From assembly GCF_003704095.1 (NCBI RefSeq), contig NW_020847248.1:124001-188000 (forward strand): 64,000 nucleotides of DNA, read 5' to 3'. Positions 4,951 through 64,000 of the stretch are shown in pieces (positions within the stretch are counted from its first letter, which is position 1; each line of letters opens with the position of its first letter). Below the pieces are notes generated by a model. That model saw only the letters and a list, made by a program, of their open reading frames with translations. It was not told the DNA's origin and ran no database searches. Made by a program: the position numbers and the translations under genes. Origin of the DNA: Pocillopora damicornis. Its lineage: Eukaryota.

Positions 4951-5228
4951 TATGGATACCTAAGAACACCGCAACGTATCGATCATGGTCTTATTTTACC
5001 TTCTGATGAACAATATTCTCACTGTTTTTTTAAACTGATTAGTCAACACTTTCGAATGACTCTTCGAACGCCATTCTTCCTTCCCAGCATACAACGCGGG
5101 TATACCCAATCGAAACCCGCAGTACGAAAACACAGTGGGCTCTAAATCACTAAGTGAAAAAACAAAATGGCGTCCCTTGCGACCTGGAAAAACTGAAAGT
5201 TCGAAAAATTATTTCCTGTAGCAGATAG
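4951..5228. promoter_or_regulatory. Bidirectional promoter shared by ASB7 and KATNAL2
   Basis: The start codons are divergent and only 278 bp apart. The interval retains CpGs and has a YY1-like CAAAATGGCG at 5163-5172. Confidence 0.65.
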
Positions 5229-39100: not shown

Positions 39101-42100
39101 TTTCGTGGATGTTTAAAGTATCGGAACAACGAAATGACGCTTTGAGTGGCCTAAAAATCTGTTAGCCAGTTTTCTGTCTTTTTTTAACTGAAAGTTACTC
39201 ATTTCTTTGAAGAGTACTCAGAATCGTTATTTCTGTAATTTCTTGATTTCACCAAGTCGCCGTCACAAAGTTTTTTTTTCAGAAATATTTTCCGCTCCAA
39301 GGATTTTACGATAGGGTTTTCTTTCGGCACTCTGATTTCTTTATATTAATACTAGTAGTTTGTGTAAGCATCATTTACCTCCACCCACAGCTCTTAGCTC
39401 CTGTCCTCTGCTTATTGGTTATAACAATGTTCAGTAGGAGCTGGGTACTATTGCATTTTTAGCTGAAGTGGGTCTCAGATGGTCAGAATTGGTCAAGACA
39501 CTTAGTCCAAGCTACGACTGGGAAAAGGCGATACAGACTGCGATGGAAACAGATGAATCGTTAGCACAGGTTTGTCTGCTACATTTCGGGCTCGTTTCTT
39601 GTAATCAAGGTCGATGTGGATCGAACGAAAGGGCACTGCACTGCTTAAAACAGTACAAATAAACGTTTTTTGGTCGGGACATCACTTTTCTCTCTCTGAG
39701 AGAGAATATATAAAGTCTTCAAGTGCATGGGTTTGAATCATGAGCTAATTAAACTGCATTTAATAATTAAAAGTTCAAGTTCAGAGGTAGATTAATGAGA
39801 AATTTAACCCTGATGAGAGACTTCATATGTGATGCTCCATTTTCTTTGACTTGATAAAAGGTAGACAATTAAAAGGTGGTGTATTTGGCGTAAATAACTC
39901 ATTCATCCTTATGACTTAACTCAATTACTCTCAGGCTATAAAGAATGGCGATGTTTATGTTCTGCGATATGAAATGTTTGATGACATGGCTACCTTCCCT
40001 GATTATTCTGAGAAGCGACCGGGTCGCACAATGTGGCCGTCGAAATCACCAATAGCTTTGTTTGCCCTGAACAAGGAAAAACGACTACGAGCAGCAGCAA
40101 TTCAGACCGATTACAAGCCAGGTTGGGCATATTGTTAAGAACCCTCTGAATCAAGATCTGATTATAAATCTTCCCTCTAGTTAGTGAAATATTCTTAAAA
40201 AGCAGTGAATAAAAAAGGGACTGATTCACGGCACAGCAAAAGTTTCACCCAGTTCAATCGATAAATAATGACGCACAACACTTCTAAGGAAGGGGTGGGA
40301 GGGGAACTTCAATGTTATAAAGATCGAAACGCTCCATCAACACCCGTTTCTACTCTTAATTCGCGCACATAGGAACTTGATGGTCACATTTGCAACGAGG
40401 GCATTGAAATATTGATGTTGTCTATCGGAGTATGGAATACCAGAATGAAGACCCCTTTACAGGATATAAGTTGGCACTAAGGGTAGAGTTTGTACTCAAG
40501 CTTATAGGCCCTCCAAGCCGGAGCTTATCCCGGTTTTCAAGCGGCGTGAAGTGACTAAGAGAATTATTACTTCTCCCTTGATGAGGGTCCGATGCTAGTT
40601 TTTTGCAAGGATAAGTAGAATCTGCCAAGTATTTAATGGCTTGAATACGGAAGTAACAGCTAATCGTCTGAATGTGGATAGCCCTGGAAAGAATTGTTGT
40701 CGATGTCTCTGCTAGGATCCTCTATACGATTACCTTCTGCCTACTGATAAAACTCTTTAAAGGGTCAAAGCAATTTACATACTTATTTATTCTTCTATTC
40801 TGATTTTTTTGTTACCAGATTCGCCCGTTTTCGCCCCTAGTGATGGTGGGTCCTGGATGTTGGCCAGACAGGTTGTCCAGGCAACAGATTACACGCACAG
40901 CCAGATGATAGAACATCTTCTAAAGGTCAGGAGTCGTCGTTTCCATTGTTATTGTCGTAATAAATATTTTGGTAACATTACTATTATTATTATTATTATT
41001 ATGTTATCATCATCATCATTGTTATGTTTATTGTATATACCATCATTACAACAAGCAGTTGGTCCTGCGAGAATTATTTCGCTCTCAGAGCTTTCAAAAC
41101 AATTTCAAACTTCTTCATGATTGAATTTTAATGGCCCTTAGGTCCATCTTTTGGCAGAACCCTTTTGCGTGGTCATGCACCGTCACCTTTCCTCTCAGCA
41201 CCCGCTGAATGAGCTCCTCAAGTACCACTGTAGGGGCCTTTTAGCTACAAACACCTTGGGCTCACCATCGCTGGTCAACGAAGGTGGTTACATGGACATT
41301 CTGACCGCCATAGGCCACAAAGGAACCATACTACTCTTGGAGCGAGGCTACAAGACGTTGGGTTGGAAAGACACAGATTTTCATCAGGACATAAAGGTAG
41401 CAAATAAGATTATCTTTGCCTTTTCGGAAAAAGAAAGAAAAAAATCGAATTAATTCCCTGTCCATACGAGGGGTGCGTCGTCTTGGCTTGAACTATCGGG
41501 AAATAAACTTTAAAAAGACCTTTACAGGTATTTCTTTAGGTGTTAAATTTCTGTTTGGTATATACTCGTCTTGAGAGTACAAAAGACACACCGCAGTAGC
41601 TTAGATGAATTCAAAGCACGTAGGGTACTTGAAACTCAAGCCAAGATATAAATAACATTACTCTAAATATCTCGAGCTCTCTTGGAGCGATTGAATGAAT
41701 GAATACATTAAAAACAGTTTTATCTTATCCACAACCCCTCTAATTTCAAATTCTTACCTTACTCCGTGAAGCGAACTCGCCTGCTGCCAGATTCCACAGA
41801 TTTTAATTGACGATGACGTCAGCATTTTCCCGCGAGATTAGGCGTCTTTCTCGCTTTTTCGTTGACGCGTTAACATATGAAATAGAAAAAAAAAAATTCG
41901 CCTATTTTCGCAGATGACTGAACCTCTAAAAATCTTAAGCTTGAATCAACGTCGCATTTTAACTTTGCAAGGCTCTCAGCCGTCAATGGGTACTTATTTT
42001 TCATCGTAGCAATCTTCAGGCAATAAAAAAAATCATTTCTCTCTCCAGAAACGGGGCCTTGATGACAAAATCAAATTTCCTTACTTTCCGTATCGCGATG

Positions 42101-44697
42101 ACAACAGATTGTTACTGATGGCAATATCAAGAATGGTGGAGGATTACATTTGGGTGTAAGTTAAAACATGAAAGCGAATTTTAATTTGCATTTATCCGTT
42201 CTTATTCCCATTCTCCTCTATGAACAAGAAAACCGTATTTCATAACTGTTTTTACCAATCTCTTGCATCTACTCAATTTGATGTAGATTCATCATCAGAA
42301 TGTCAACTTCGCCAAAATAAATACCTATTTTAGCCTTTGAGAACTATGTCAAGAAATTCTAAGCTATTATTTTTGGTCCATGAATACCGTGCTCAACTGG
42401 AGGGAAATCTTTTGCCAAGGTAAACAAAATATGACGAAAGAAGAACAAATAAAAACTGAACTGTATGAATGTTAGGTATGGCAACAAGAAACAAAGATAA
42501 CAAATTGAAAGTTTCTTACCTCAAAAGAAAGGACATTAATCCTATTTCGATTTTAAACACAAAGAAGATAGTGAAAAAGAAGATTGACTTCTCTCCGTAC
42601 AGAAGCTCAGTGACAGATAAAGTCATCCTTTCTCAGAAACAAAGCCGACACACGGGTAATAGCATAATGTACCCGTAACAGCCAAGATTCAGTGACATAA
42701 AAATAAAAAATTCAAAATAATGAAAAAATATCCGATGGTATGATCATTTTCTTTCAGTTTTTACAAACGAGACAAGGATGTCCGGGAGGACGAAGAGTTA
42801 CAAGCCTATGTAAATGAGTTATCTATTGAGGGGACTGGACCGAATGGTGGATCTGGCCAGGTAATGAAAAGACATGGAATGGGCCAAAACCGGAAGGTTT
42901 TAGTTTGCATTCACTACGAGAGCCTGGTATTAGTTATCCGGTGTCTAAATTTGCTACTAATAAATGTAGATAAAATACTGGAGCCCCTATACTACAAGGT
43001 AATCGGTAGCAAAAGTAATTGTTAAGGGTGAAAATAGGTCAAGAGCCCCCCTAACCACCATCATAAGCCAAGGGCGTAGCTAGGGGGAGGATGTGGGGTC
43101 GTGGGGTTTCCCGTGGACCCCCCTCCCTTTGCAGGTCTTTTTTGTCACATTAAGTAAAACACGGCGTGGTGGTCGATCTCACAATCCTTTAATTTCCCTC
43201 TGTTGGACACAGTGTGATCCCCCCTCTGAAAATCCTGGTTACGCCCTTATAGGCGATACCAACATTGAATTTATTACAACTTTGGCTGAAACGCCAATCA
43301 TTCTTCTTATAACAGCTGAAACCTGCTAAACCTAAAATAAGCTTGAAACTGCCAAAGGTGATCATATTGATCCAAGATATGTATGCAAGACTTTCCAAAT
43401 AAATTCTTCGCGTTGGTCTCCGTTTCGAGAGGGACTCGTTTATCAATCTTCGTTTTTCTCATTTTGTACGATAGGTTAAAGACTTTCCGGCCGTGTTGGA
43501 GACTAAGAGCGAGCTTATAGACGTGATAACGAGATTGCTGTGGTTGTTAAGTGTGAAGCATTCTACGGTAAATTATCCCGTGAGTGACTACGGAGCCTTT
43601 ACACCTGTCTTGCCAACCAAGCTTTATAATGACACCAGTGTACCGCCAGGAGTGTTCTCCGAGTTGAATTTACCAAATCGCAACATATCCCTTGTAAGTA
43701 TTTCTAGCCAATCAGTCATTCAATTGATCGATCCATTTCTCTTATTACAAATTAATGGTGTTACAGACGGTGTGTATTGGGCATTTGTTCCATCAGTAAT
43801 CCAGTTATAAGCAGGACTATTAATCTTGGAGAAATTTGTCAGAGAGTCTGTCAGACTGTCAATACGTCTAGTGGTCAGGAAGTTAGAGAACCGATCTGAA
43901 TGATAGTCACAGGTTAGTCACTCAATCGTTTGGTCGATTGAATGACAAAAAAAAACTTTCTTTACAATGATAAGAAATACGAAAAGTGGTGTCAGTTAGT
44001 CAGACAGGCTGTTTGATCGTCAGGAAGTCAGGCGGCCCAACTGACAGATAGTCACACGTCATGATCAGTCAGTCAATCGGTTGATCGATTGAACGGCAAA
44101 TTAAAAAATTTTTCCTCAAATACGAAATAAGAAAAGAGAAGAAATAGGGCAGGTATCTCACGAATTTTCAACTCCTCTCCTTAAAATGGAGGCCTTTCTC
44201 AAGATCTTGACTGTTACTCCCTTTACTTCCGCATAGATAGAAATGTAGACTACTAATCAGATGGGAGGATATTCTCATCTTTTTCTTTTGTTAGCTAGTT
44301 AGAAAGTTTATCTTAAGAGCGATTCTAATTTTCTAAAGAGCTTTATCTCAAGTAAAGATGACCATGTACGCGAGTTATTCAATTCTCTCTAATTTGAACC
44401 ATTTAATTTCCTTCAAGCCTTTCACCCTGCACATGCGCTAACAACCTCTTTTGTTCCCTATAGGCCCAGATCGAGGTAGCTATGAACGTGGGAACATACC
44501 ATTATGACACGTTATTTGATTACTACGGGCAGCTCAAGAATCCAGCAGCAAAGCAAGTGGTTAGGTTTTATTTCTATTACCTTAAGTATGCCGTCAGTCC
44601 CAGGCTTAAGTTCAGGAACTATCGGAGACTTAAGGCTGGCCATCTCACTTATCCATATCTACAACATCCTTGGATTCCAAACGGAGTCCAGACATGA
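36125..44697 (+). CDS. Lipoxygenase, 633 aa, 12 coding exons, predicted secreted and lacking the PLAT domain
   Basis: Exons 36125-36183, 36999-37045, 37939-38270, 38887-39031, 39463-39569, 39935-40121, 40819-40925, 41142-41396, 42049-42155, 42758-42860, 43475-43693 and 44464-44697 total 1902 nt in frame. LOX motifs: WREDDMFTEQRLSGCNP, HSQMIEHLLKVHLLAEPF, HPLNELLKYH, FPYRDD, HSTVNY and terminal WIPNGVQT*. Confidence 0.92.
37679..37745. ncRNA. Inverted pair of minimal hammerhead-like motifs (Penelope-like repeat)
   Basis: Minus copy CTGACGAAGGGCTAACGCTTGAAACGTC and plus copy TTGACGAGGGGCTAACGCTCGAAACATCAG are followed by the family tail ACTCTTT.CGGTGGCCAATTTAC. Confidence 0.5.
43071..43247. 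mobile_element. MITE with GC-rich TIRs (hAT-like) in a LOX intron
   Basis: Ends AGGGCGTAGCTAGG and CCTGGTTACGCCCT are imperfect reverse complements. Confidence 0.6.
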
Positions 44698-47362: not shown

Positions 47363-50109
47363 ATGGCGAACGAGGAGGAATCAGGAGGTTATCGCTGGTT
47401 AAATCAGTACGAAAGAACGTGGTACGTTTAGTGTGATATCCTAATATTTATAACCGCCTTATTTTTACAAATCATGTGCATATATATTTATGTGCGCACG
47501 TCCCAAGCCTTGGCAATTATTTTTTTTTAAGTACAAGCTGGGGATTGCCTCCTTTGCGCGAAACTATGCATGGCCTCTCCTGTTTTTTTTTTCTCTGTCT
47601 GATCTCGGCTCTCTTTTTCTATCCTATTGATTACCTTGCTCGTTGTACTGCACTCAAATTTCCGAGCTTCTCAACTGACAAATCAATTTTCAGGGAGGCA
47701 AAAACGGAAAAAAGTTTTTCTATTAATTAAATGAAATAACTTTGGGAAGATTTCTGCATAGCATCATACTATAGCACAACAAAGTGCTATAGAAAATAAA
47801 GATGGAAATCTATTTTTATAGAAAATCTGTTTTTTCGCCTTTTTTTTTTATTTATCCTACCATCTGCATAACAAGGTAGTGGGGTGGGTGGAAATCTTAG
47901 TATAACTTTAACAGTATAGATGTTTTTGTCATCATCATTCAGCAGCATTAAATCTATCAACTGCAACAAGTTATATGGCTACATGTTGTTGTATGGCTTG
48001 ATTTTTGGTGTTCTATAAAACCATATATTGAAATAAACCCGAGTAACCAAAACTTCAGACATACTACATATTAGAACCAGCATTCAGTATGGTATACTCA
48101 TAAATACTTGTTTTTGATTGCCCAGGGAAGTTATTCAAGAAGATGCTGAAGGTTCTCTTCAAACAGTGGTGGATGAAATTTCACACAGGACCAAAAGAAG
48201 GAGGTGGAACAAAAACTTTACAAAAACATCAGATTAGAAATTTGAACTCATTGATGCATAACCAAACATCTCTGGATCTTTGTAGTTCTATTTTTTTCTT
48301 TTTATTCTTCTTGTTCTTATTTCTTTCTTCTAGTTCTTTCCCTTTTAATTTGTACATAATACCATCTTTACATGTAGTGGAAGAGAGTATTCAAATGATT
48401 TGTATGTTCATGTAAAAGTTAAAGAGTAATCAATGGATAGTTAGATATTGCACTGCTTTCCAAGCCAGCCAATTAGGATCCAATTATTCAGTCTTTCAGT
48501 TGTATGTATAAGATTAAGATTTCTTAAAACAATTTACAGTGAAGAATCCACTAAATTACACTTTTAAAATGACAATGAAAAAGTGATTGATGAAACAAAC
48601 AGATGAGAAATAAAGAAATAAACATTTAAGTTCTCTTGAATGAGACTTTGAGAATAAGTAAACATTTACAACTGTGAGTCTGACTAAATGTTTTGCTGTT
48701 GTGAAATTTTTCAGAGTTATGGGAAGAAGTGGTAACATTCGACTTGGGATGGTATGTATTAGGTGGTAAATAGAATAAATTAAAGCTAATACGGACACAT
48801 TAAGAATATCTATTCTTCATTCTCTAAATTGATTGAAATAATGATACATGTTCATTCTTGAAGGAGAGGTATTTGCCAGAAATCATTAAGAAATTTTATC
48901 TCTGCCATTTGAAAGTATAACATGAAATTATTTTTGGGTTGATGAGAGGAACAAAAAGACGTTCAAAAACGTCTCCAAATGTGTTAACCCTTTAACTCCC
49001 AAGATCTCATTAGTAATTCTCCTTACTGTCTACCAAATGATTCTCATTTTGTAAGTTTGGAGAATTTGGTATCGGATCAATTAGCAATCCTATTATTGAT
49101 ATTTTTCTTTATTCTCATCACTTGTCTGCATGATATTGTATAGATATAGTAAGGAGAAATTCTGTCTTGGTCACTCACAGGAATTAAAGGGTTAAAACTT
49201 TGACTGTAGGTGAAGCCACTTTGAATTATTCAGTGCAATTGAATTTCATCTGAAATTTGGATATTAATGACATTTTAATGGAGAGGTATCAATTAAAGAC
49301 CTCTCAGAATGTTAAAAATATCTCAATTTTATAATGTGACAATTGCTTTTTTTATTGTAATTTTTAGATGAGGCACTTGTTTATCATTGTGGATATGTCC
49401 AGAGCAATGGAAGAAGCAGATTTAAAACCTTCACGCCTTGCATGTTCTGTCAAGGTACCTGAGTTAACTATTAGCGACATTTTGAGAGTTGAAAATAATA
49501 TGCAATGCCTCAGTTTGGTTTTGCCTATTTCAGAGATATTCAATGTAAAGTTAGTCATTATTGACAGTGATCTTGAACCAATATAATATCTTTTCTAACA
49601 GCTCTTGGAAACTTTTGTCACTGAGTACTTTGATCAGAATCCTATTTCACAGGTAAAGTATTATTTTTCTTCAAGGTGATACATCTGATTTTGATGAGTA
49701 AGAGCCAGTGTTATCAGTGTTAAATCTTCGGTTGCAGATTGGAATTATTGTGACCAGAAACAAGAGAGCTGAGAAACTCACAGAACTGAGTGGTAGGACA
49801 ACTGAAGATAACCTTTGCTGACTTCATTTTTTACAATCATTAATACTCTGACATTAGTCATATTCATATTATCATGATTGACCCTGGGAGACTAGAAAAT
49901 AATTGAACGTAACCAAAATTAAATTACAATATAATTTATTTTGTCCAACTGAGTTCATAATCCAAATTGGCCCCTGTAAAAAGATTCCAAAGCAAATGTT
50001 TTAAGCTTTAGCCCTTCATCAGAGCAAATGACAAAGGGCTAATACTTGAAACATCAGGTGGCCAAGTTTCATCATCAACTGAGTTGATGATGAATTTACC
50101 CCTACAGAT

Positions 50110-50146
<37 letters not shown>

Positions 50147-53100
50147 TTAAAAAAACAAATTAGGTGAAATAAAGTTATAAACAAGAGCATTTTGTGATTT
50201 TTGAAGACAAGTGTGAAGAAATTGACAGAAATTTTGATATATATATATATATATATCTACAATAATTAAATTGTTTTTTTGATGATAACTCAGCAATGAT
50301 GCCAGTGAGATATATAGTTTTATCTTTTTATCTCTAGAGTGACAAGTGCACTAAATGTTATTTTTCACACCTAGGTAATCCACAAGTTCACATTGGCACT
50401 CTCCAAAAAGCTGCTGCTAAACCTTGCCAAGGAGAACCATCACTGCAGAATGCCATGGAATCTGCTGTTCAGTCGCTGAGGTGAGTAACTTCGTGGATGG
50501 TTTTACAGTAGTGATTTAAGAAATATGAGAAGCCCAGTTGAATTTCAATGATGCAAAAGCACCTTATACACATTTAGGAAGACAAAAACAGACTGAAACC
50601 TCTGAACCTGCATGACAGGCTTATTTTCTGATAAGAGAATGTTCAGTTATGAGGCCACAATGATCCTACCTGCTTCAGGCTCTCCTTAATCTTTCTAATT
50701 CAGTGTAGCAGCTTCATCACTGCATTCAGGTTAGTAAGCACTTGCTTGCTATGCAGACTTCTAAAGCTAAGGAGATTGAAAGTGGATTGGTGGAATGTGT
50801 AAAGATAATAAACACTTTTTTATATTTATAGACATATGCCTGGCCATGCCAGTCGTGAAATACTTATTCTGTTTGGAAGCCTTACATCATGTGACCCAGG
50901 AGATGTCTTGGAGACTGTTCATGTAAGGACTGGCATTCTTCTAGATGTGTAAATGGGTATTTTTTTCTTTTTCATCCTTACAAGTTAGTTTGCTTGACTT
51001 TTGACTTGTTGACCATTTTCTTCTCAGACTCTTCAGCAACAAAATATAAGGTGTTCTATCATAGGCTTGGCTGCGGAAGTACGTGTTTGTAGAACAGTTT
51101 GTGCTGAAACACAAGGTTGGTGATCTGTTTTTCATTGATGTTATTGAGGCCTTTTTCCATTAAAAATGGCATATGCACAATATAAGTTCCTGATTTCTCA
51201 AAACAAAAACCTTGAGAGGCTCAAAAAAGCTTCCTTATTGGACACAATATATTGGTTGATGGATGAATACAACCAGGATTTTTGTCTTTTTCCTCAAGAT
51301 TGGTATCATGTAGATTTATAATTAGTTATCAGTTCAGGATCTTTTTCACTGATGCCAGATGTCACTACGGCAAGGCCACAACCTCATTAAAGAAAACTAT
51401 TTAATTTTGGCATTATAGGTAAAGGGTAGGTTAGGTTAGCTGTTCTTATTGTAAGGTGGCTCTGACATTTTCTCAAAACTTTGCTGAATGATGATTCTTG
51501 ATACGATGATTTCAATTCCAGAATAGAAAATAGCAGCCATTGTCATCTATTTAAAGGCTTTAAAAGCTAAAATTAGAGTTGTACCTATGATGATTTATGG
51601 TTTCTCAAAAAGACATTCAATTTATATTTGTATATGATTTGCACAATTGCTCTATACCATTCTCAACAAATCTGATGTAAAGCTGTTGTTGGTGCTTGAA
51701 AATAATGGAACATATTTAAGGATCCATTCATTTAACTTGGCTGGGTAAGCATTTCTTAGGGAGTTATGGTGAACATTCTGGATGAAACACTTTTGAGAAT
51801 CCATTGAACTTGGCTGTGTTAACTTTTTTTAGGGAGTTATGGTGTTATTCTGGATGAGAGACATTACCGTGAATTATTAATGCAGCATGTTACACCACCT
51901 GTGGCTAAGGTATGCTCAGGGATATTGATAAATCCTTCAGTGCTGTTGTTAACACTGAAACCAATTTTATTTTACAAATGTATTTTTGTTGTTCAAGAGA
52001 GGAACTCCATGAATCCAAAAACTGCAAAGCTATTTGGTCTTGAAGTATCATAATGATAGAAAACCTTTTCAAACTGTTTGATTGTTTCCATGAGAATGAC
52101 AGATTTATCAGTACTCACTGTTACATCTACAGTCTTATTAACAGGAATGAAGAAAAATATTAATGTACTTTTTGTAACTGAAATCGTTGTTCATGCTTAA
52201 CAACCAACCACCTGTAGGGTGAGATTTTCAGGTGGGCCTGTTCATTTAACTTCAGTGTGGTCTTCTGACCTGTTTTTCTATGTAAAAAAAACCCTTGTTG
52301 TTAATGAGCTAGTTATTCATTGCGAAGTTACAAAAAGTACTGTTGTTCATCACCATGACCCATAGTCTGTCAAACCTAAGAAGAAGATATCATCAGGGGT
52401 CTAACCTGTAGCCCTGTAAATTCAACTGTTACTCCAGGGTTCAATGTTTTTTCATTTGTACAGCTTTATTTCAAGATTATTTTTAAAATTGTTCTTAATT
52501 TGTAATAGACTGATACAGAAGCTGCTTTGATTCGAATGGGTAAGTATTGTTGATGTCTCAATCATTGCATATCGTTTTGAAATGCTTTACATGTACATAC
52601 ACTGTACTGTGCTTCACATTTGCTATAAGAGTCCTTTTAATGAGGATATGTATGCTATGTTAATGTGATAAATGAAAAGTGAAAATCCCCATGAACCTTT
52701 AGCCCAGCAAACGTCTAGAAGAAATGCTCATTTGCAGTGAATCCACAATAGAATGGTTGATTTCTGGTCTCTTCTGAAATTGTTCACAGGTTTCCCTCAG
52801 CATCTTTCGAGCGGACCACCATCCTTGTGCATGTGGTAATACATATAATTATTACGTAATTTGAGTGTTTCCCGCGCGCCCTATTTGTCACGACTTGCAC
52901 AATTTCATGTAAGAAGTACAGAGAAATAATAGTGGTTTAATTAAGGGCTGATGCCTCAAAGGGGCAATAATTAACATCCTCAACTTTACTCCGAACATGC
53001 TATTGCAGCCATGCACTGCACTTTATTCATTATTTCACTGGGATTAAACTCAAGTCGTAGTAAGTACTTCCTTCACCCACTAGAAGAAACGGTTGGAACT

Positions 53101-55731
53101 AAATGGTCCAAGAACCTCACATAATACTATGGTTCGATTTGGTTGAATCTCATTTAAGAGGATTAATAACATTCATGTTTGATTCATTCTACTAAAACTG
53201 GGATAGATTGGAGAAGATTCTCCTTCCTATCTTTTCTTTCCTCTTTTTGGCATCCAAAAAGCGCAATACTGCACAGGTTTTCACTAATATTTTTACGGTA
53301 TTTTAGAATACTTATCATCCATCCATTTGATTAGTATTTTGTTGTATTTTTTGTAGTCATTTGGATAGTAATGGTGTTAAAGGACTTAGCACATCAGGAT
53401 ACTTCTGTCCGCAGGTAAGATGAGCCTTTTCATTCCCTCTTATTTCCAAAGCTGCACGATAAGGGATGGCTAATACTGATTCTCCCTTTTTTCAACCATT
53501 TTTTAGTGTAAGAGCAAGTACTGTGACCTGCCCGTAGAGTGCAAAGTTTGTGGTGAGTTCCCATTTTAAGAAATCAATTACTTTCTATGAGGACCCATTG
53601 TTTAGACAGAGGTAAAATGGCTCTCGTAGGTATCGACGCAGAGAGGGTAATAATATCTTGATGAATCAGCATGTATTTTTGAGAAGTGAACCACGCAACG
53701 CTGATACACTATTTTTTTAAAAAAAACATTTAGGCTAAGATTAAGAACACACTAAGAACATACCTGGGCCATACCCTGGCTGAAGGTCATTTGAGTGCGT
53801 CTTTATTTTGCTTTTTTTTGGTTTTTTTTTTTTGAAAAGTATTATTAAATAAAAGTAAAAGAGCTGTAAAACTGTGTTCTAACAGGACAATTAACTCAAA
53901 TGCTTATGGAAATTTTTTAACCTTGATTTACTGAAATACTTAACCACACAACTTTAAGAACATGTGAGAACGGTGTCCTTCGCGGGGTAATTAAGTTCTG
54001 CTTATGCAATGTGATTTGATAGAACTTTTAAATTTCTTCTACCATGGTAGAAAAGACATGGAAAAGTCTTTGGACATTCGAGAATTGTTATATTTTACTG
54101 GAATACTAATAGTAATGTGACATGTGTTTACAGGTCTAACGCTTGTGTCTGCTCCTCATTTGGCTCGTTCGTATCAGCACTTATTCCCGCTTCCTCAGTT
54201 CACTGAAACAGATTTGTCAACTCCTATGGATGGACAAAGCTTACCCAGGTAAAATACACTGTTGAGATAACGATGCAAATTGAGTAGATCAAGGTCTGAT
54301 TTCAATTCTGCACTTCGTGTAGCGGTCAGAATGCCAAATGGGTGAAGTTTTATAATCGATCTCAATGTCATCTGCATAGTGCATGACATGGTTATGACTT
54401 TTTTAAAAAGTATTCAACCGTTGCTCATTGCTATTTGTTAGTCTGAGTTGATGGACTGATAAATTTTATGAGACGTTCGTATCTTTGGTTCCCTTGGGGC
54501 CACAGCTCTTTAACATTGCGTGTTGTGAAACCAAAGTCATCAAAACAGCTAACAAGAACAAAGATTACCAGCACAAAGAGACTCTGAAAACTGGGTTTTA
54601 ACACACCTAAACGACCTCGAGCGAGGAAAATCACAAGTGACTTAGTTGCAGTTGGTTTTATGTTTGCCCTTGTTTGCATTCTTCAGACGAATCGCGGAGC
54701 GTGTCAATAGTGAAAGACTTTAAGCACACAACTGAAAATCACGTTATTGTGTCATTCCCTCCCGATTCACCACTAAGAACAGCATTCAACGATCTTTTTC
54801 AAATTATTTGAATAATGCAAGATTCTTTTATAACCTCGATGTCGTTTTCAGGTTTTTTTCTTTTTTAATCTGTATAGACACAATTATTGCTTCGCCTGCC
54901 AAAGAGCGTTTACAGAACAAACGGTGAGCAATTTTCATATAATTAGCTGTTTTCCTTTTGTTCGTGTGATTTAATGTGATTGTGATCGATGCCGGTGTGG
55001 TTTTTGTTATCGCGAAGTTGTATTCACGGTTGTCTTATCTTTTCCTTTCGTTTGTTTTGTGACTCTTTGATGTTGTTGATTATTGAATTATTGAACAGAC
55101 CAGCATAGCTGTTCGTTGATCTAAAAAATATCCAGAAAAGCTTCACTCCTTCCTTGCGGTTGAAGGAGGAGGGCACAATAACGATCACAGTCGAGCGGAT
55201 TCCCACTGTCATTTTTCACAGAGGTGTACTAAAATTTCAAAAAGGAACCAATGGTGTGGACGAGTGCAGTAATAAATCTTGATAGATACATACGATTAAT
55301 GTCCATTTGTTGCTATCCAGCAGAAAAATAAAGCTTGTACAAGACTTTTCGCAATATACATTCTTCTTGTCACGAGTTCCTACGATGAATCGAACCCCAG
55401 ACCTCAAACCCACACTGCTTTCGGAGGCGATGTGTTTGGAAAAGTGCTTTTTGAATGGCCGAATTTTTTGACCGATTTACGTGCAATTTCGCTCTGACGA
55501 AGGATTAACGTTTGAAACGTCAGCTTAGAAACTCTTTACGGTGGCCAATTTATAATATCAACTTAGTTGTTAAAATTAAATCATCTTGATACGAGTATTA
55601 CGTTTGTTTTCTTGCAGATATATTCTTGCCCTCAATGTGCACAGTTCTTTTGCATGGAATGCGACATCTTTATCCACGACTCCCTCCACAGCTGTCCCGG
55701 GTGTACTGCCTCCCCACAAGGGGAGGGTTAG
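47363..55731 (+). CDS. GTF2H2: General transcription factor IIH subunit 2 (p44/Ssl1)
   Basis: Spliced exons give [143 protein letters not shown] and the C-terminal [23 protein letters not shown]. Confidence 0.95.
48984..49195. mobile_element. Full-length TTAA-flanked piggyBac-like MITE
   Basis: TTAACCCTTTAA...TTAAAGGGTTAA terminal inverted repeats. A second copy lies at 27430 and a degenerate copy near 62396-62592. Confidence 0.8.
55488..55572 (+). repeat. Penelope-like repeat copy with a degenerate hammerhead motif, in the last GTF2H2 intron
   Basis: TTCGCTCTGACGAAGGATTAACGTTTGAAACGTCAGC is followed by ACTCTTTACGGTGGCCAATTT. Same family as 21870-21952, 28315-28510, 37680-37805 and 49950-50140. 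Confidence 0.65.
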
Positions 55732-56162: not shown

Positions 56163-59100
56163 TTAGACTTTTCCCCCGAAAATTACTCTAAAATCAAAAG
56201 TCACATCATCTCCAATCAGCATGAAGGGTGCCCACTGGCTCACAAGGGAAAACCCATTACGTCTCATCCACTTCATAGCATGGTGAAGAGATTCACTAGC
56301 ACTTTCACCACGTGCAAGGTGTGCGTAGAAGCACTTCATCAACTGCTCTGTTGCACTGTCTTCCAGGGCCCATAGTGCCACCAACACTGAACGTGCACCG
56401 GATCCTAAAAACGCCCGAGCAATGCCAACCACTCCCTCAGTTCTGATCTGTCCTTGTGCACTGTGACAACAACTCAGAACTACAAGTTTTGCTCGCAGCT
56501 TAACTTGAGATATGTCAGTCATTGATAAAACAAACTCTTCATCTCTTGGAGTATGGTGAATGGGACGGAGAGGTGCAAGTGCAATTTCTCCTCTGTCTAC
56601 GTTACCATGTGCTGCTAGATGTATCAAACTCACGGATTTGATCCTCTGAAGAACGGCCCTCTTGGTTGCTTGTTGTCCTATCAAAGGCTCGATGTTCAGC
56701 AGTCGTCCAATCATCTCTGCTTCCCTTCGTGCACAAGGCAATGGTGGTATTACTTTGCGGCGACCCTTATAAATGACTTCACCAACTTCAGGATCACCAA
56801 CAATCAATGCACCGGTTTGACTGTGGTAATCATCTGGACTGTCCTGAATGAGTTTAAGAGTCGTCAACGATGGTACGAAGCGAATCCTAAACATTTCGGA
56901 TAAAAATTTCCCATTCTTTGCCTGTAAAGCTGCAAATGGCACCCGAAACAACTGACGATCTGGAACGATGATGATGTTGGGCTCTTCAAGGAAGTCAGCA
57001 ATAGGAGCAATGATCATGTCATAATACAAACGTAGCTTTGGGTCAGGTTCCTGGTCTTCGTCCTCCTCTATAGGTCGAAAAGAAGCGAAATTACCTCCCT
57101 CAGTCGACAAATCTTTCGTTTGATTCTCATACGAATAGCGATCTTGATGACTTCCTTGGGACAAAACGCCAAACTGTCGAAAGCTTTCAGCGAAAAATTC
57201 ATCCCACGTTCTCAATAATCCGCCCTGCATTACATCACTGAATTCTCTTTCGTGGATTTTGAAGACACCGTTTCTCTTCAAAATCCACAGAACCAAATTT
57301 CGAGGTGTATACGAGATGTAGAGGAAAGTACTTTTCCTCTGTTTGTCCATGACATTTTCAATGCCGGTCCAGGATTGGAAATCAGTGGACACTTGGTTTG
57401 CTAATGAGTACTGGACTGACAGTGAGTCGGTTAAGGCCCGGGCTCTTCCGAGCTCTAAAACGCAGAGTGCCTGATTATAGTCTTCAGCCAAACGAAACAT
57501 TTCACTGAGAATCCAGTACGGGAAAACACACTGTTGTGCAAAACATATCTTAAATTGATCGCTGTCCCCAACAGCACCACGCAATTCCTCGCAATTCTGA
57601 ATGTTCGTAAAAAGACATGCAAATGCATCTAAAACAGCTCCTTCCAAAATTGAAACGTTTGTAAGTCTGCAAAGAATCAAGAACTCTTTTTTGCCGTCAC
57701 GAATCTCTCTGCTGATGGCAAGTGCCCTCTCAAGATATTCTTTAGCTTTGACGTTTTGACTGAGGGAGATGCATAAACTTCCCAGGTGTTCATAATCTCT
57801 TGCCAATCCTTTCTTGTCCCCGAATTCTTCACTGATTGACATAGCCTTCTCGAAGTATTCTTTGGCCGTTTGGTGGTCGCCAATAACGCGATGAATGCGT
57901 CCAATCATACTGTAAGATCCTGCTTCTCCCTGTCTGTAACTAAGTAGTTTTGAAGTTGAAAGCGCTTTTTGAAAATTTTCGTCAGCCTTCTTGTATTTTC
58001 CAAGACTGAAAAACACATTTCCGACATTTATGTACGACGTGACCTCCGCTCTTTTGTCTCCAATTTCTCTTCTTATCCCCACGTCTTTTTCGAAATAATG
58101 TTGTGCCTCGACATATTCTCCAAGAGAGAGAAACAAAGCGCCGAGGTTCCCATAGCAAGAAGCTTCACCTCCTCCATTACCCATTTCTTTATGGATTGTT
58201 AGTGCTTTCTCGTAGTAATCCTTCGCTTTTACATATTCACCCAAATGTTTAAATACAGTTCCTAAGTTTCCTTTACATAATGCCTCTTCTTTCCTTGCGC
58301 CGATTTCTTGGGCGATTGCAAGTGCTTTTTCGTAGTGATCCTTTGCTTTGAAATACTCATCTTGGAATTGGAGCAAAGTTCCACTGTGCAAGTGAAACGA
58401 GGCTTCACCTCTTCTGTTCCCGAGTTTTCGTATGATTGCCACAGCTTTTTCGTAATAATCTTTTGCCTTGCTATAATCACCCAGAATTTGATACACAGTT
58501 CCTAAACCATCGTAAGATGTAGCCTCACCATTGATGTCACCAATTTCTTGTTGGATTCTAATCGCTTTTTCGTAATAATCTCTAGCCTTTGCATAGTTAC
58601 CATAACGTTGAAACAAATTGCCTTGATTTCCATAACATGCTGCCTCTCCTTTTTTGTGTCCAATTTCTTGTTCTATGAAAAGTGCTTTCTGGTAATAATC
58701 TTGTGCCTTACGATATTTGCCAAGATGCTGGAACACATTTCCTAGATTTCCATAACATTTCGCTTCAACCAATTTGTCACCAGTTTTTACTACGATTTCA
58801 ATCGCCCTTTCAAAATAACCCCTAGCCTCGGTATATTCACCTAAATCGAGAAAGACAGTTCCTAGGTTGCAATAAGATGATGCCTCTCCGTCCTTGTTAC
58901 CAATCTCGTGCCTGATTTTCAGGCATTTTTCGTGATAATTCTTTGCCTCTAGATATTGACCAAGACGCTGTAAAACTATTCCAATATTTCCGTGACATAT
59001 TGCTTCTCCCATTTTTTCACCAGCTTCTTGGTACATCATAAGAGCCTTAACAAAATATTCTTTAGCTCTGGCATACTCGCCAAGAGATAGAAAAACAATG

Positions 59101-59885
59101 CCCAGGTTCACATAAGTCGGGGCTTTACCTTTTTGATCACCAATTTTTTGCTTAATTGCGAGTGACTTTTCGTGATGCTCTTTTGCCTTGTTATATTCAC
59201 CAATTCTCTCCAACACTGTCCCTAGGTTTCCATGAGAACTCGCTTCTAGATCCCTGTCGCCTGATTCTTTTGTGATAGAAATTGCTTTTTCGAGATACTC
59301 TTTCGCCTTTATGTATTTACCAAGAGACTGAAACATGGCCCCAAGGTTGGAGTAATTTCTGGCTTGTCCAGTTTTGTCACCCTCTTGTATTCTGACCTTC
59401 AGAGCATTCTCGAACGATTCCGTCGCTTTGACGGTTTTACCAAGAGAATTACAGACAATCCCCAGTTTCTCGTAGCAAAAGGCTTCTTCGCTACTGTTGC
59501 CTATTTCCTTATTGATTTCTGCTGCCTTTTGAAATAGTTCCTCTGCATCAACTAGTTTCCCATGATTTTCACAGAGAACGGCTAGTGTTAGGAGTAGGTT
59601 ACATTCTAAAGATTTCTCGTCATAGCTATGAAGGGTGTGAAGAAGCCTCTTTCCATATTCTATAGCACTCGAGTCCTCAGAGATTAAACAATAGATATCG
59701 AACATGGCCAGATGCAGAGCTTTGGACCATATGAGGATTCTGTGTATGATTCCTCTGTTGTGTTTGCAAACCAAGCATTTCTTACAAAATCCAATGACCT
59801 GTAAAACTCGACAGGTCTTGAGAAAGAAACTGGCGACGACGACGCCAATCAAGACGGACTGTATAACCTCACCTGTCTCGTTCAT
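56163..59885 (-). CDS. Intronless TPR-CHAT protein (TTC28-like; caspase/separase-related CHAT domain), 1240 aa
   Basis: A single 3723-bp ORF has 16 tandem 40-aa TPR-type repeats (EA..YGNLG.VF..LG.Y.KA..Y.EKAL.I..EIG). These are followed by ELGRARAL, IIVPD..LF.VPFAAL, IHLAAHG, LVVLSCC, FLGSGARSVLVALW and WAPFMLIG. Confidence 0.93.
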   Translation of the reverse strand: MNETGEVIQSVLIGVVVASFFLKTCRVLQVIGFCKKCLVCKHNRGIIHRILIWSKALHLAMFDIYCLISEDSSAIEYGKRLLHTLHSYDEKSLECNLLLTLAVLCENHGKLVDAEELFQKAAEINKEIGNSSEEAFCYEKLGIVCNSLGKTVKATESFENALKVRIQEGDKTGQARNYSNLGAMFQSLGKYIKAKEYLEKAISITKESGDRDLEASSHGNLGTVLERIGEYNKAKEHHEKSLAIKQKIGDQKGKAPTYVNLGIVFLSLGEYARAKEYFVKALMMYQEAGEKMGEAICHGNIGIVLQRLGQYLEAKNYHEKCLKIRHEIGNKDGEASSYCNLGTVFLDLGEYTEARGYFERAIEIVVKTGDKLVEAKCYGNLGNVFQHLGKYRKAQDYYQKALFIEQEIGHKKGEAACYGNQGNLFQRYGNYAKARDYYEKAIRIQQEIGDINGEATSYDGLGTVYQILGDYSKAKDYYEKAVAIIRKLGNRRGEASFHLHSGTLLQFQDEYFKAKDHYEKALAIAQEIGARKEEALCKGNLGTVFKHLGEYVKAKDYYEKALTIHKEMGNGGGEASCYGNLGALFLSLGEYVEAQHYFEKDVGIRREIGDKRAEVTSYINVGNVFFSLGKYKKADENFQKALSTSKLLSYRQGEAGSYSMIGRIHRVIGDHQTAKEYFEKAMSISEEFGDKKGLARDYEHLGSLCISLSQNVKAKEYLERALAISREIRDGKKEFLILCRLTNVSILEGAVLDAFACLFTNIQNCEELRGAVGDSDQFKICFAQQCVFPYWILSEMFRLAEDYNQALCVLELGRARALTDSLSVQYSLANQVSTDFQSWTGIENVMDKQRKSTFLYISYTPRNLVLWILKRNGVFKIHEREFSDVMQGGLLRTWDEFFAESFRQFGVLSQGSHQDRYSYENQTKDLSTEGGNFASFRPIEEDEDQEPDPKLRLYYDMIIAPIADFLEEPNIIIVPDRQLFRVPFAALQAKNGKFLSEMFRIRFVPSLTTLKLIQDSPDDYHSQTGALIVGDPEVGEVIYKGRRKVIPPLPCARREAEMIGRLLNIEPLIGQQATKRAVLQRIKSVSLIHLAAHGNVDRGEIALAPLRPIHHTPRDEEFVLSMTDISQVKLRAKLVVLSCCHSAQGQIRTEGVVGIARAFLGSGARSVLVALWALEDSATEQLMKCFYAHLARGESASESLHHAMKWMRRNGFSLVSQWAPFMLIGDDVTFDFRVIFGGKV

Positions 59886-62800
59886 GTTACAAGCTTCTAC
59901 AAGAATAAAAATATGAGAATATTGGGGTAAGGATCCATTGCTGTTTACATCGTCTTCCCCTCAGTCTGTTCGGTTCGTCATTCAATAAATCCTGCAATCT
60001 GACTATTTTAAACCTGCAATCTGACTATTTAAACTACGCAAGTTGGCATTTAATTTACCTCTTTTGGCTCTCTCCCTCTCAGCTTATCATAACAAATAAT
60101 TCATGCTTTTTGAAGACGTTTATAGGGAGCAATGGCTAACTTGTAAACTTCTCTTTCACAAGCTCATGTAACAGAATACACCCTGGTGCGTTTCTCTCCT
60201 GGGTATATCATTTCGTTTCGAAACCTTTTAAGGTTTTTAGGACTTTGGAGCGTTTGACGAAGTTTTAGGATGGTGACTAATGCACTGAAACCGAAATCTG
60301 CGGGATGAACTTCACAATAGTTTGATTTTTGCTTTTCGACAAGCAAAATTGTTGTTTAATAGTATGCATGAAAACGGCACAGGATAGCAGACAACAAAAA
60401 CATTAACACAAAAAGACAAAATTGCTGGAAAGAATATTGACCAAAAACGACCGAGGAAGGTCGGAAATGGAGAGGACTGGCACAGACTCAAGACGACAAT
60501 CGTAAAAACTTAAAATTTCTTGGAGAACCATAACCTACCTCGTAGCTTTTGCAAAGTAACTGAAGTAACGATTACTTTTTGACTATTTTTCTTACACCTC
60601 CTTCGAAAAAAATTGTATCTACCCTAAAACATCTTATAGAACTTGTAAGTAGACCACTGATCATGAACGCTCATTTGGCGTGACCATAACTTCATGTCGT
60701 AATTTGCGATTTTCCCAGTCTGTGTTAAGTTTTTTTTTCCAGTAGCAAACGTTTATATGGTTATATTAGACCTCTCGATCACATTAAAACTACTAGCGTT
60801 AAAATAGCCAAATGTTGAAAAATTAACTCGAAATTAAAAGGTGGTTATCACCTAAGCTGCCGGAACTGAGTCAGCTGTACGATTGAAATCCGGAACGAGC
60901 CTACTTCTTCACACTGAAAACAATTTTGTTAATTAAGGGAACCAAAGGATGGCTTCCATTCTAAACTATGCAAAGCTAAGAACAGCACTCGGAAGCAAAA
61001 TTTAAAAAAATAACAACAACAACAAGTTATACCCACCGCTTGGTATTTTAGGAACTGGAAATCGGTAAATGTCTTATCTTTGCTAAAATCTCCTGGAAAC
61101 AAAGCTTTTGTGGTAGTAGGGCTGAAAATTCACCAAGAGCAACAAGTAATTCTTAATCACTGTGAAAGCGTTCTTCAATTTCAGAGAGAGTTTGCCTTCC
61201 ACTGTCGAAAAAAGAAGGAATGATAGGAGTAATCATCAACCTTTCTTAAAAAGGACCTTTTGGTTTCGGAAGAAATTTAATCGATGAAAAAAAATTTATT
61301 TATATAGGAAAAGTGGATAAGATAAGATAAGAGATCAGTAATCACTTTCGCCCCATTCCCACGCGAGGCTCCCGGTCCGCTCAGGAATGGAAAGGCTTCC
61401 TATCCTTACTTCCTTTTCACTGCTGAGAATTGTTTCAATCACTCGAAAATGGAATTGTTCTAAACGGCTGAGTCATTTATCATACAACACGCACTTTAAC
61501 GCGCACTTTCCTCGAAAAAATTACGACACTGATTACTCGAAAGAGAGCCATACGCGAAGAAGTGGGCACGGGCCAGAAAAAGCTGTACAGTCTGGCGTAC
61601 GGCCCACCAAGATGCGAGACAGAAACAATCAGAAAAGAAAGAGAGAAAGCAGCGGCAATGTTAAAAATCATATTGGCGCTCCGTTGCCTTAATACGGTAA
61701 AATGGCGTAATGAATGGTGGAATGATGAATTCATGTTATTCTGTGAAGGTCGACATAGGCCCACGGTCGCTGGATCGAGGATTGACAACAGTCGTTCAAA
61801 CGACAGAGCAACATCTGGATAGTGATTTTAATAGAAATCGAATTTTTCGCAATGACCCTGTTTGTTTCACACTTATGTGACTTACTACTCAATATTTCGA
61901 CTAAGCTTAGATAGATACATGTGATTACATAAACAATATAATTTCAGTAGTTCGCGACTACCGCACAAACCTAATATCAATTGAAACTAGACGGAGTAAG
62001 GATGCCTAACAATTGCAGGATTCCTACTGAGTTGGTTTCCGCCCAACAAACAGATGACAAACAGTCTCCCTTTTAAAAAACTACCCGTTCTTCGTTTTGC
62101 AAGACGCCAAAGCGCATTACATGTTTCTCTTCCCGAAATTACTAAACATCCTTGCTTAGTTGTTAGTCAGTAGGATTTTTGTGAACCAAGATATTTATAC
62201 GTTATCTTACAGAAGAGATATTTCATATGAGCTCAAAAGAAAAGTAACTTCATGGTAAATTCTTATGCAGTAACGAGAAGTAACTGTCTTTAGGTTCTCA
62301 GATTTAGAATTTCCTGCAATAGTTTAGCAAACAATACAATTCCCCTAATAATACAGATCTCTATAGGTTTTATCTATTAAGAATACAGATCTTATAACCT
62401 TGAACTCCCTTGATTTGACTCGCAATTCTCCCTTCAGACTTTCATACATTCCCTAGTGAATTAGGCGGAGAATTTGGTATTATACCAAGCTATACCATGT
62501 GAGTGATAATTTTGTGTACTCTTGTCGACTTTGCTTGATAATGTACGAAGTTTGTAAGGGTAAATTACATTTGAATCATATCTGGGAGCTATGAGGTGAG
62601 GGAAAGTTTCTTTTACGCTTAAACTAACCAAATCTATTTCGTCAAACGCAAAGGCAGAAACTGCCGCCCTGCGATAAACGCAAAACTGAAAACCCTCTCT
62701 AGCCGTCGTTATTTTTACAGGAGGAGGCTTCTACTTGACCTCACTGAAAGAGAAGAAATTCTTTTCCTTGCATCTTACGAAGGTCAGCTTTGAGGCACAT

Positions 62801-63422
62801 TGAGACTTACACGTACGTGAAATTATACACAAAATTGTTGTTTTCTTATAAATCTACCAACATAGCTAATCACCGAACAGTTGCCGCAATAAATACAAAA
62901 ATTAGGGCAATTAACAGCGACAATGTTACATTTATAAACAATTCTCAAAGAGCCTTGACATAACCTGCTCCCTGGGTGTGACGGCGGGGTAGGGCCGGAG
63001 GGGGGGTGGTGGTGAGAGGAGGGTAGAGAGGGGGGAAGACCCCCCTTTTCTCTACACTCGAGCTGAATTTTAGCGCAAATCCAATGTGCTGATCATAATT
63101 CAATCCCCTGACTATATTAAAATGTAAGCATTAAATTACTGTGCGTCATGTTTCTTTATATATAATTAATCTCCATCAAGTTATTCGTATCCCCTTTGAT
63201 GATTTAAACTTTTCTACGCCGTTATGATTGCCTCTCCTTTAATAAGGATAATGATCACTTGTTCTCCCTCAATATACAAACAAACACGTTTACCAAAGTT
63301 CAAAACTACCATAAAAAAGCGGTCGACAATATATTACGTCGAAATCGTACACAGCTACCAATGTATTCCGTTATATCATTTATCTACACTAGATTCATTT
63401 GTCTTGTTTTACTGGTTTGATC

Positions 63423-63950
63423 TTATGCTTCTTCGTAGAAACCGTCGATCTCATCTTTGAACATTTTGTTCACAATTGGCCGCCTCAGCTTCAGAGTGGG
63501 ACCTAGAATAAAGTACAAATATAACATTAGGGTCAACAAATCAATATCAACTATATCTCGTATGATATTACAGCGTCCCTTTCAATGCCATTTTTCTCGT
63601 TACGTTAGCGAGCGAATCTCAAAGTTTGCCAGTCAGAGTTCCTGAAGCGATCAGGATCCAAATTCTCCATTTAATCTTAATATACTGTAAAACAGACGAG
63701 TACTGAGAATTACGAAAATTATCGACGAGGGACTATCGCCTGCATGAAACACAAAATTTACAGGAGTGGCCAACAAAGGAAGGCATGGTCATCATATGGG
63801 AGAGTTGACTCTCAGACCTTTGGAGTGAAAGAACAAGGACGGAGCTAAATTGAGACCAGAGTAAACCATTCTTAATTATTCAAACAAATTCTTACCCAAC
63901 TCTCCCCCTGGAAGGGAAAAGTCTTTTTCCAAGATGCGCCACTTCTGCAC
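63423..63950 (-). CDS. Long-chain acyl-CoA synthetase, bubblegum family (ACSBG1/2-like); last two exons only, gene continues beyond the window
   Basis: Exon 63950-63896 (VQKWRILEKDFSLPGGEL) splices in phase 1 to exon 63502-63423 (GPTLKLRRPIVNKMFKDEIDGFYEEA*). This matches the characteristic ACSBG C-terminus. Not in the ORF track. Confidence 0.85.
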
Positions 63951-64000
63951 CTGCAAGAGACAGTAAATTTTAAGATAAGAATTATCGGATAGGACGTGTT

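What the first reader, a model, noticed from the sequence alone, without database searches (positions are those of the whole stretch)
56163..59885. Intronless TPR-CHAT with an intact His/Cys dyad: candidate sensor-protease of an animal immune or cell-death system
Seen: a 3.7-kb single exon sits among intron-rich genes. The CHAT domain keeps both catalytic motifs, IHLAAHG (about 56602-56621) and LVVLSCC (about 56461-56490). Known: TPR-CHAT caspase-like proteases act as ligand-activated effectors in bacterial defence (for example Csx29 in type III-E CRISPR), and TTC28-like genes are expanded in cnidarians. Inference: an active protease gated by its TPR solenoid, spread by retroposition, duplication or ancient transfer. 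No substrate gene is evident in the window.
Basis: partly seen in the sequence, partly recalled or inferred. Interest (0 to 1): 0.7.

Follow-up and report, generated by a model that had tools for sequence, protein, structure and literature searches.

The report
Coral TPR-CHAT sensor-protease gene copy
This is one old, conserved copy of a gene family already known to be multiplied many times in reef corals; it joins a repeat-protein coil to a protease-like domain that keeps its cutting residues and likely acts as a binding-triggered cutter, whereas the ordinary animal relative TTC28 lacks that cutting motif.

Summary
Confirmed: one 1240-aa reading frame (56163-59885, minus) with 16 40-residue TPRs and a CHAT domain; His1093/Cys1140 align with a solved CHAT dyad. 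It belongs to the published coral TPR-CHAT expansion (PMC12314368): 53 near-complete CHAT domains in this genome (25). The scan met this family before on other DNA. Retroposition is unlikely: a splice acceptor precedes the ATG here and in 11 of 21 family starts (9.8% background, 60), and the genome's true TTC28 also holds its TPRs and CHAT in one long frame (78). Origin is unresolved (66). Added here: the dyad is kept in 122 of 123 coral relatives, while 0 of 105 TTC28 orthologues keep His-Gly and 90 lack the Cys (47). An Asp 36 residues after the Cys is invariant in 123 of 123 (81), hinting at arginine specificity (inferred). Young paralogs diversify at groove positions (pN/pS about 1.6; 55, 78). 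This copy is old and under purifying selection (pN/pS 0.20; 69), with one locally divergent variant. Activity, ligand, substrate and immune role are untested; transcription is not shown.

The parts
56163..59885 (-). Single coding exon, 1240-aa TPR-CHAT protein
59610..59885 (-). N-terminal cap (aa 1-92) with a motif shared by family members
57690..59609 (-). 16 tandem 40-aa LGN/GPSM2-type TPRs (aa 93-732), 38-70% alike in DNA
   Evidence: nearest natural solved relatives GPSM2/Pins, E 4e-42
58356..58631 (-). TPR units 9-11 (aa 419-510): 20 of the 44 differences of cluster member P0132 fall here
   Evidence: 0 of 20000 permutations reach it
57036..57689 (-). Helical plus beta linker (aa 733-950), aligned with the matching region of Csx29 and separase
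57045..57170 (-). Predicted disordered loop (aa 906-947) with family-conserved E-D-R-S motif (here Q914-D-R916-Y) and R937; candidate self-cleavage or pseudosubstrate site (inferred)
   Evidence: pLDDT under 50; R916 98% and R937 94% in 80 aligned sequences; EDR motif in 109 of 123
56208..57035 (-). CHAT caspase-like protease domain (aa 951-1226)
56607..56609 (-). Catalytic His1093 codon
56466..56468 (-). Catalytic Cys1140 codon
56358..56360 (-). Asp1176 (W-x-x-x-D), candidate arginine-binding pocket residue (inferred)
   Evidence: D in 123 of 123 coral relatives, 47 of 49 own copies, 11 of 11 bacterial, 37 of 105 TTC28
59897..59920 (-). Polypyrimidine tract and AG: likely acceptor of a 5' intron
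49380..55540 (+). Neighbour: intron-rich Ssl1/p44 (GTF2H2) gene, tail to tail with the TPR-CHAT; ends approximate
61815..64000 (-). Neighbour: last exons and 3' UTR of an acyl-CoA ligase-like gene (ACSBG, recalled); ends approximate

Best explanation
The gene is an old, selectively conserved member of the coral-expanded TPR-CHAT family and likely encodes a cytosolic cysteine protease that is predicted to stay off until a protein ligand binds its TPR groove. Shown: architecture, dyad, fold match, family size, purifying selection on this gene and on CHAT domains, diversification at groove positions in young paralogs. Inferred: (1) an extended peptide binds the groove, as in LGN-type TPRs; (2) binding realigns His1093/Cys1140, as in Csx29; (3) the enzyme cuts after arginine, using Asp1176, possibly first in its own E-D-R loop; (4) the family serves non-self or damage sensing. 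Copies likely spread by DNA-level duplication and decay often.
For: Dyad in 122 of 123 coral relatives and 42 of 49 distinct own-genome CHAT frames; 6 family copies and divergent L069 lack it. True TTC28: His-Gly in 0 of 105, Cys in 15 of 105. Model of aa 716-1240 (pLDDT 80, pTM 0.84) matches Csx29 (Z 27.3, rmsd 3.5, 380 aligned) and separase (Z 26.2, rmsd 3.7, 316 aligned). CHAT dN/dS median 0.29 over 18 disjoint paralog pairs; 15 silent and 11 replacing among the 26 coding differences shown, pN/pS 0.20, p 6e-5. In 122 repeat pairs at least 85% alike from 32 of 46 TPR frames, unit positions 40 and 4 have pN/pS 1.60 and 1.58, bootstrap intervals above 1 at all 3 thresholds tried; whole repeat 0.6. 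Unit position 4 is TPR position 2, 11 is TPR 9, 14 is TPR 12, ligand-facing in PMC1261162. Human separase D2070 binds the P1 Arg, 41 after its Cys (PMC12609080); Scalindua-type Csx29, which cuts after Leu, has Ser at the aligned place.
Against: No activity, ligand or substrate is known. DdvA keeps both dyad and Asp, yet no cleavage was triggered in its study. This copy's own repeats are old (at most 70% alike), and its variants are no denser in TPR (49 sites in 640 aa) than in CHAT (24 in 276 aa), with unequal cover and some frameshift tails counted. It has Q-D-R-Y, not the family's E-D-R-S. Equivalence of Asp1176 with separase D2070 rests on spacing and a recalled motif; no call aligned them. 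The Asp is also in 11 of 11 bacterial CHATs and may be structural. RNA cover is low and like intronic cover. pN/pS is a simple count on non-independent pairs; position 40 was picked after seeing the data.
Confidence: 0.55

Rival explanations
1. An active or scaffolding TPR-CHAT with a developmental or cell-division job, like TTC28 or LGN, not an immune sensor.
For: LGN-type repeats; this copy is stable, sits between housekeeping genes and is under purifying selection; PMC9145168 suggests a cell-cycle role (passages).
Against: The genome keeps its own TTC28; birth, death and groove diversification across the family fit conflict better (PMC12314368 section 15).
Confidence: 0.2
2. A binding protein whose CHAT domain is kept for structure or signalling and does not cut.
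For: TTC28 shows that animal CHAT domains can be conserved without the catalytic motif; DdvA dyad mutants behaved like wild type in the resting state.
Against: His, Cys and the W-x-x-x-D Asp are among 20 columns invariant across 11 coral and 9 bacterial CHATs; TTC28 lost them, this family did not.
Confidence: 0.15
3. A family acquired separately from bacteria (for example cyanobacteria) and then expanded; this concerns origin, not function.
For: CHAT is 39% identical to cyanobacterial CHATs against 32% to the genome's TTC28; coral plus cyanobacteria as one clade is not rejected (p-AU 0.29).
Against: Coral plus TTC28 is not rejected either (p-AU 0.41); the 58-row quick tree groups all 47 animal rows, SH-aLRT 91; TTC28 shares the long-exon layout. 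Only 10-11 bacterial rows, all from plasmids, were sampled.
Confidence: 0.15
4. A retrocopy or neutral by-product of repeat-driven duplication.
For: Single coding exon; many broken copies in the genome.
Against: Acceptor upstream of the ATG in 11 of 21 family starts against 1680 of 17108 control ATGs; purifying selection; cluster of 261 members, including full-length variants.
Confidence: 0.04

Closest known systems
Coral TPR-CHAT domain-containing proteins, 'TTC28-like' expansion (PMC12314368, PMC9145168, PMC6208414)
   Same: Same architecture, same clade of many paralogs, variable TPR number, birth and death of copies.
   Different: Nothing that sets it outside; this copy is solitary and old. 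The passages read do not discuss the dyad, specificity or selection on repeat sites.
Metazoan TTC28 (TPRBK)
   Same: LGN-type TPRs followed by CHAT; long exon layout in this coral.
   Different: Separate clade (100/100); about twice as long; His-Val/Ile/Met instead of His-Gly, Cys mostly absent.
Csx29/TPR-CHAT of type III-E CRISPR (Craspase)
   Same: Best fold match (Z 27.3), TPR plus CHAT, His/Cys dyad.
   Different: 12-13% identity; no CRISPR locus; the Scalindua-type protein lacks the Asp at W+4; Craspases cut non-Arg sites.
Separase
   Same: Fold match Z 25-26; helical repeats gate a clan CD protease; cuts itself in a flexible insert.
   Different: Single-copy mitotic enzyme; about 13-16% identity; the coral loop motif is E-D-R, not ExxR.
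Fungal NLRs with high-internal-conservation repeats (PMC13449251)
   Same: In paralogs: near-identical repeats with a few diversifying positions.
   Different: No NACHT/NB-ARC ATPase; this copy's own repeats are not near-identical.

Membership tests
Coral TPR-CHAT expansion | N-terminal TPR array followed by one CHAT domain | tested here: met
Coral TPR-CHAT expansion | Falls in the multi-copy coral clade | tested here: met
   clade support 97/87; 136 and 138 matches in the genome; named hits are coral TTC28-like or uncharacterised proteins
Coral TPR-CHAT expansion | Lies in a tandem cluster in a non-syntenic region | tested here: inconclusive
   nearest paralog 33 kb away on the same contig, opposite strand, with fragments further on; no second haplotype or relative to compare
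TTC28 orthologues | Groups with bilaterian and anemone TTC28 | tested here: not met
   the true orthologue is G000:C3436 (L074)
TTC28 orthologues | Degenerate catalytic motif (His-Val/Ile/Met, Cys mostly lost) | tested here: not met
CHAT / clan CD cysteine proteases | His-Gly and Cys at the dyad positions | tested here: met
CHAT / clan CD cysteine proteases | Caspase-hemoglobinase fold of Csx29/separase type | tested here: met
   (predicted model)
CHAT / clan CD cysteine proteases | Cys-dependent cleavage, gated by the TPR region | not testable with these tools
   needs an assay
CHAT / clan CD cysteine proteases | Separase-type Asp pocket for P1 arginine | tested here: inconclusive
   Asp1176 invariant; not aligned to separase by any search (86, 95, 96)
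Craspase Csx29 | Encoded in a type III-E CRISPR locus with Cas7-11 and Csx30 | tested here: not met
   flanks are spliced animal genes
HIC-repeat NLR-type receptors | Repeats 80-100% identical within the gene | tested here: not met
   this gene at most 70%; 29 of 46 TPR frames in the family reach a mean nearest-repeat identity of 0.80 or more
HIC-repeat NLR-type receptors | A few repeat positions under diversifying selection | tested here: inconclusive
   seen in young paralogs; not measurable in this copy's old repeats
HIC-repeat NLR-type receptors | Central NACHT or NB-ARC ATPase | tested here: not met
   none among the 25 of 27 Pfam families shown; aa 93-732 are all TPR
Retrocopy | Loss of all introns, including the 5' one | tested here: not met
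   acceptor signal kept here and across the family; sequence signal only, no spliced read seen
Retrocopy | Poly-A tail and target-site duplication | tested here: inconclusive
   no long A run seen downstream by eye; old copies lose it; no repeat search run

The most novel reading that the evidence does not exclude
Corals run an NLR-like immune arsenal without the ATPase: dozens to hundreds of one-chain receptors in which a fast-diversifying TPR groove switches on an arginine-specific, separase-like protease that cuts its own conserved E-D-R loop or a shared death substrate, the animal counterpart of bacterial TPR-CHAT defence, while bilaterians kept only the dead paralog TTC28.
Probability: 0.3. 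Interest if true: 0.75.

Novelty: new member of a known kind. Interest (0 to 1): 0.38.

Why it matters
The gene itself is an ordinary member of a published expansion. The family matters: it is among the most expanded in reef corals and has no assigned function in the papers read. The contrasts found here (catalytic motif kept in the expanded clade and lost in TTC28, diversifying groove sites, a candidate arginine pocket and self-cleavage loop) turn 'function unknown' into direct assays for a possible receptor-protease arm of coral immunity or cell death.

Tried and rejected
Bacterial relatives by back-translated patterns in genome contigs: 55 pattern matches, none confirmed; plasmid tblastn used instead. 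Longer fused forms: 3 hits among 1685 candidates. A one-to-one orthologue in other corals: none evident among listed hits, best TPR identity about 50%, so the synteny test in relatives could not be done; the genome tool holds no relatives. Linked substrate: one gasdermin match, on contig C3447, which is not among the CHAT-bearing contigs listed; a weak test. Splice joint upstream of the ATG: none listed in RNA contigs of X1, X2, X3, X5. Aligning Asp1176 to separase: profile search gave no separase hit, one search was swamped by TPRs, and the relevant exon of the genome's own separase was not found. The careful 58-row tree did not finish; the quick tree is quoted, then a 28-row careful tree that left out L069. 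Dyad distance could not be measured, as the model's coordinates are not returned. No complex was folded. Literature searches: (0 papers); none of the listings showed a biochemical test of an animal TPR-CHAT; subscription papers and supplements were not seen and may hold dyad or selection analyses.
Full report
Observation. The minus strand holds one 1240-aa frame at 56163-59885. Pfam finds TPRs and a CHAT domain at aa 951-1226. The repeats are 16 units of 40 aa at aa 93-732; their nearest natural solved relatives are GPSM2/LGN and Pins. IHLAAHG and LVVLSCC lie at 56604-56624 and 56466-56486. In the alignment to DdvA (8ROT, E 3.5e-4), His1093 and the second Cys, Cys1140, fall on H862 and C907, which PMC11506125 names as the dyad (passages). 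A profile of 11 coral and 9 bacterial CHATs also aligns these motifs with Csx29-type chains. A model of aa 716-1240 (pLDDT 80.4, pTM 0.84) matches Csx29 (Z 27.3, rmsd 3.5, 380 aligned), separase (Z 26.2) and DdvA (Z 23.3).

What it is. The named relatives are coral TTC28-like or uncharacterised proteins, about 70-75% identical in CHAT (120 listed of 4473), so the host is a reef-building coral by inference. The genome gives 136 matches to the CHAT query and 138 to the Pfam model; by hand count 53 of the 138 are near-complete and stop-free, one of them TTC28, and the rest are pieces or broken (lower bounds). This is the expansion described in PMC12314368 (section 15, part 1 of 2, and passages: 276 and 304 genes in two Acropora, 6-362 across corals, tandem duplication), PMC9145168 (passages) and PMC6208414 (passages, which already suggest an apoptotic role). 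Five earlier notes of this scan cover the same family.

Not TTC28. G000:C3436 (L074) encodes the true TTC28: its CHAT region retrieves anemone, arthropod, amphioxus and vertebrate TTC28. In trees TTC28 (100/100) and the expanded family (97/87) are separate clades. The dyad is kept in 122 of 123 coral-family database proteins (chosen for likeness to this CHAT, so biased), 42 of 49 distinct own-genome frames and 10 of 11 bacterial ones. Of the 105 distinct TTC28 CHATs retained from 120 listed hits, none has His-Gly and 15 have Cys in the catalytic column. So TTC28 looks like a pseudo-protease and the expanded clade does not. Whether the family is sister to TTC28 or to cyanobacterial CHATs is unresolved (p-AU 0.41 and 0.29), although cyanobacterial CHATs are closer by identity (39%, against 32%).

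How it spread. A polypyrimidine tract and AG end 11 nt before the ATG. By one fixed rule, 11 of 21 family starts with the shared N-terminal motif (this gene included) have such a site, against 1680 of 17108 control ATGs; several others show T-rich tracts that miss the rule. The coral's TTC28 also carries aa 123-1709 in one open stretch. Both argue for DNA-level duplication of a long-exon gene rather than retroposition. The gene lies between an Ssl1/p44 gene and an acyl-CoA ligase-like gene (name recalled); its upstream 1.5 kb has one match in the genome. It is old: synonymous distance to its 6 nearest paralogs is 1.45 or more.

Selection. Of the 40 differences shown (39 more hidden), 26 are in the coding region: 15 silent, 11 replacing, pN/pS 0.20. 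CHAT dN/dS has a median of 0.29 over 18 disjoint paralog pairs. Across 46 TPR frames (588 units) from the window and 56 fetched paralog stretches, 29 have near-identical repeats (mean nearest identity 0.80 or more); this gene has 0.64. In 122 disjoint within-frame pairs, positions 40 and 4 have pN/pS 1.60 and 1.58 (p 1e-4, 3e-4 of 40 positions), 11 and 33 have 1.38, and the whole unit 0.6. Bootstrap intervals for 4 and 40 stay above 1 at identity cut-offs 0.80, 0.85 and 0.90, with or without a transition weight; those for 11 and 33 do not always. Unit positions 4, 11, 14 are TPR positions 2, 9, 12, ligand-facing in PMC1261162 (passages). This resembles fungal HIC repeats (PMC13449251, passages). 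In this gene, variant sites among 14 cluster members are no denser in TPR than CHAT, but member P0132 has 20 of 44 differences in aa 419-510 (0 of 20000 permutations): a conversion tract, an old allele or a sister species; protein data cannot tell.

Specificity, inferred. Asp1176 is present in 123 of 123 coral relatives, 47 of 49 own frames, 11 of 11 bacterial and 37 of 105 TTC28. Human separase D2070, 41 after its Cys, binds the P1 Arg (PMC12609080, passages). The Scalindua-type Csx29 has Ser there and Craspases cut after Leu, Met or Ala (PMC11106740, abstract and opening text). I recall a similar W-x-x-x-D motif in separase, but no call aligned the two. A loop predicted disordered (aa 906-947) holds C-E-D-R-S at 90-98% and R937 at 94% amid variable sequence; a cyanobacterial relative has D-I-R-G-R in the corresponding region (by eye). 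Self-cleavage or a pseudosubstrate there is a testable guess. This copy reads Q-D-R-Y, and 6 of the 14 cluster members read E-D-R-Y.

Expression. RNA contigs of 2 studies cover parts of the frame at depth 2-8, but intronic pieces are covered as deeply, so transcription is not shown.

Verdict. Real gene, known family, no new system shown. Most likely a ligand-gated clan CD protease spread by duplication (0.55); the immune role is inferred from family dynamics. Papers seen only as search listings are not used as support; PMC8195603 and PMC4626109 passages added nothing on this family. No supplements were read.

Noticed in passing
G000:C2762:170065-177772 (L071, L072): Two tandem CHAT genes with an intron in the CHAT domain and His-Ala plus LSCCE motifs, distinct from the main family.
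   Followed up: partly
G000:C1291:362418-363188 (L069): Divergent TPR-CHAT with Tyr in place of the catalytic His, on a long branch outside both main clades.
   Followed up: partly
window 37896-43807 (+): Lipoxygenase gene; two exons hit PF00305.
   Followed up: partly
window 4093-4959 (-): Large ankyrin-repeat exon.
   Followed up: no
window 48984-49196, 50110-50145, about 55552: Short stretches that draw very many RNA contigs with loose ends (summed depth up to 62,790): probably a dispersed repeat.
   Followed up: no
window 60115-61700: Run X17 covers the gene at depth about 52 up to 60114 and almost nothing upstream; either a different upstream haplotype or an RNA run that starts there.
   Followed up: no
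window 18486-18959: Tandem repeat that reads as open frames on the minus strand, with an N gap; no Pfam match.
   Followed up: no
L059:3428-9981 (+), also L042, L046, L079, L086: Long open frames on the strand opposite near-identical TPR arrays, probably a by-product of the repeat.
   Followed up: no
G000:C3447:190775-190957: Single gasdermin match in the genome, on a contig without a listed CHAT match.
   Followed up: partly
L092:1013-1207: A cyanobacterial plasmid TPR-CHAT is followed directly by an annotated caspase-domain gene.
   Followed up: no
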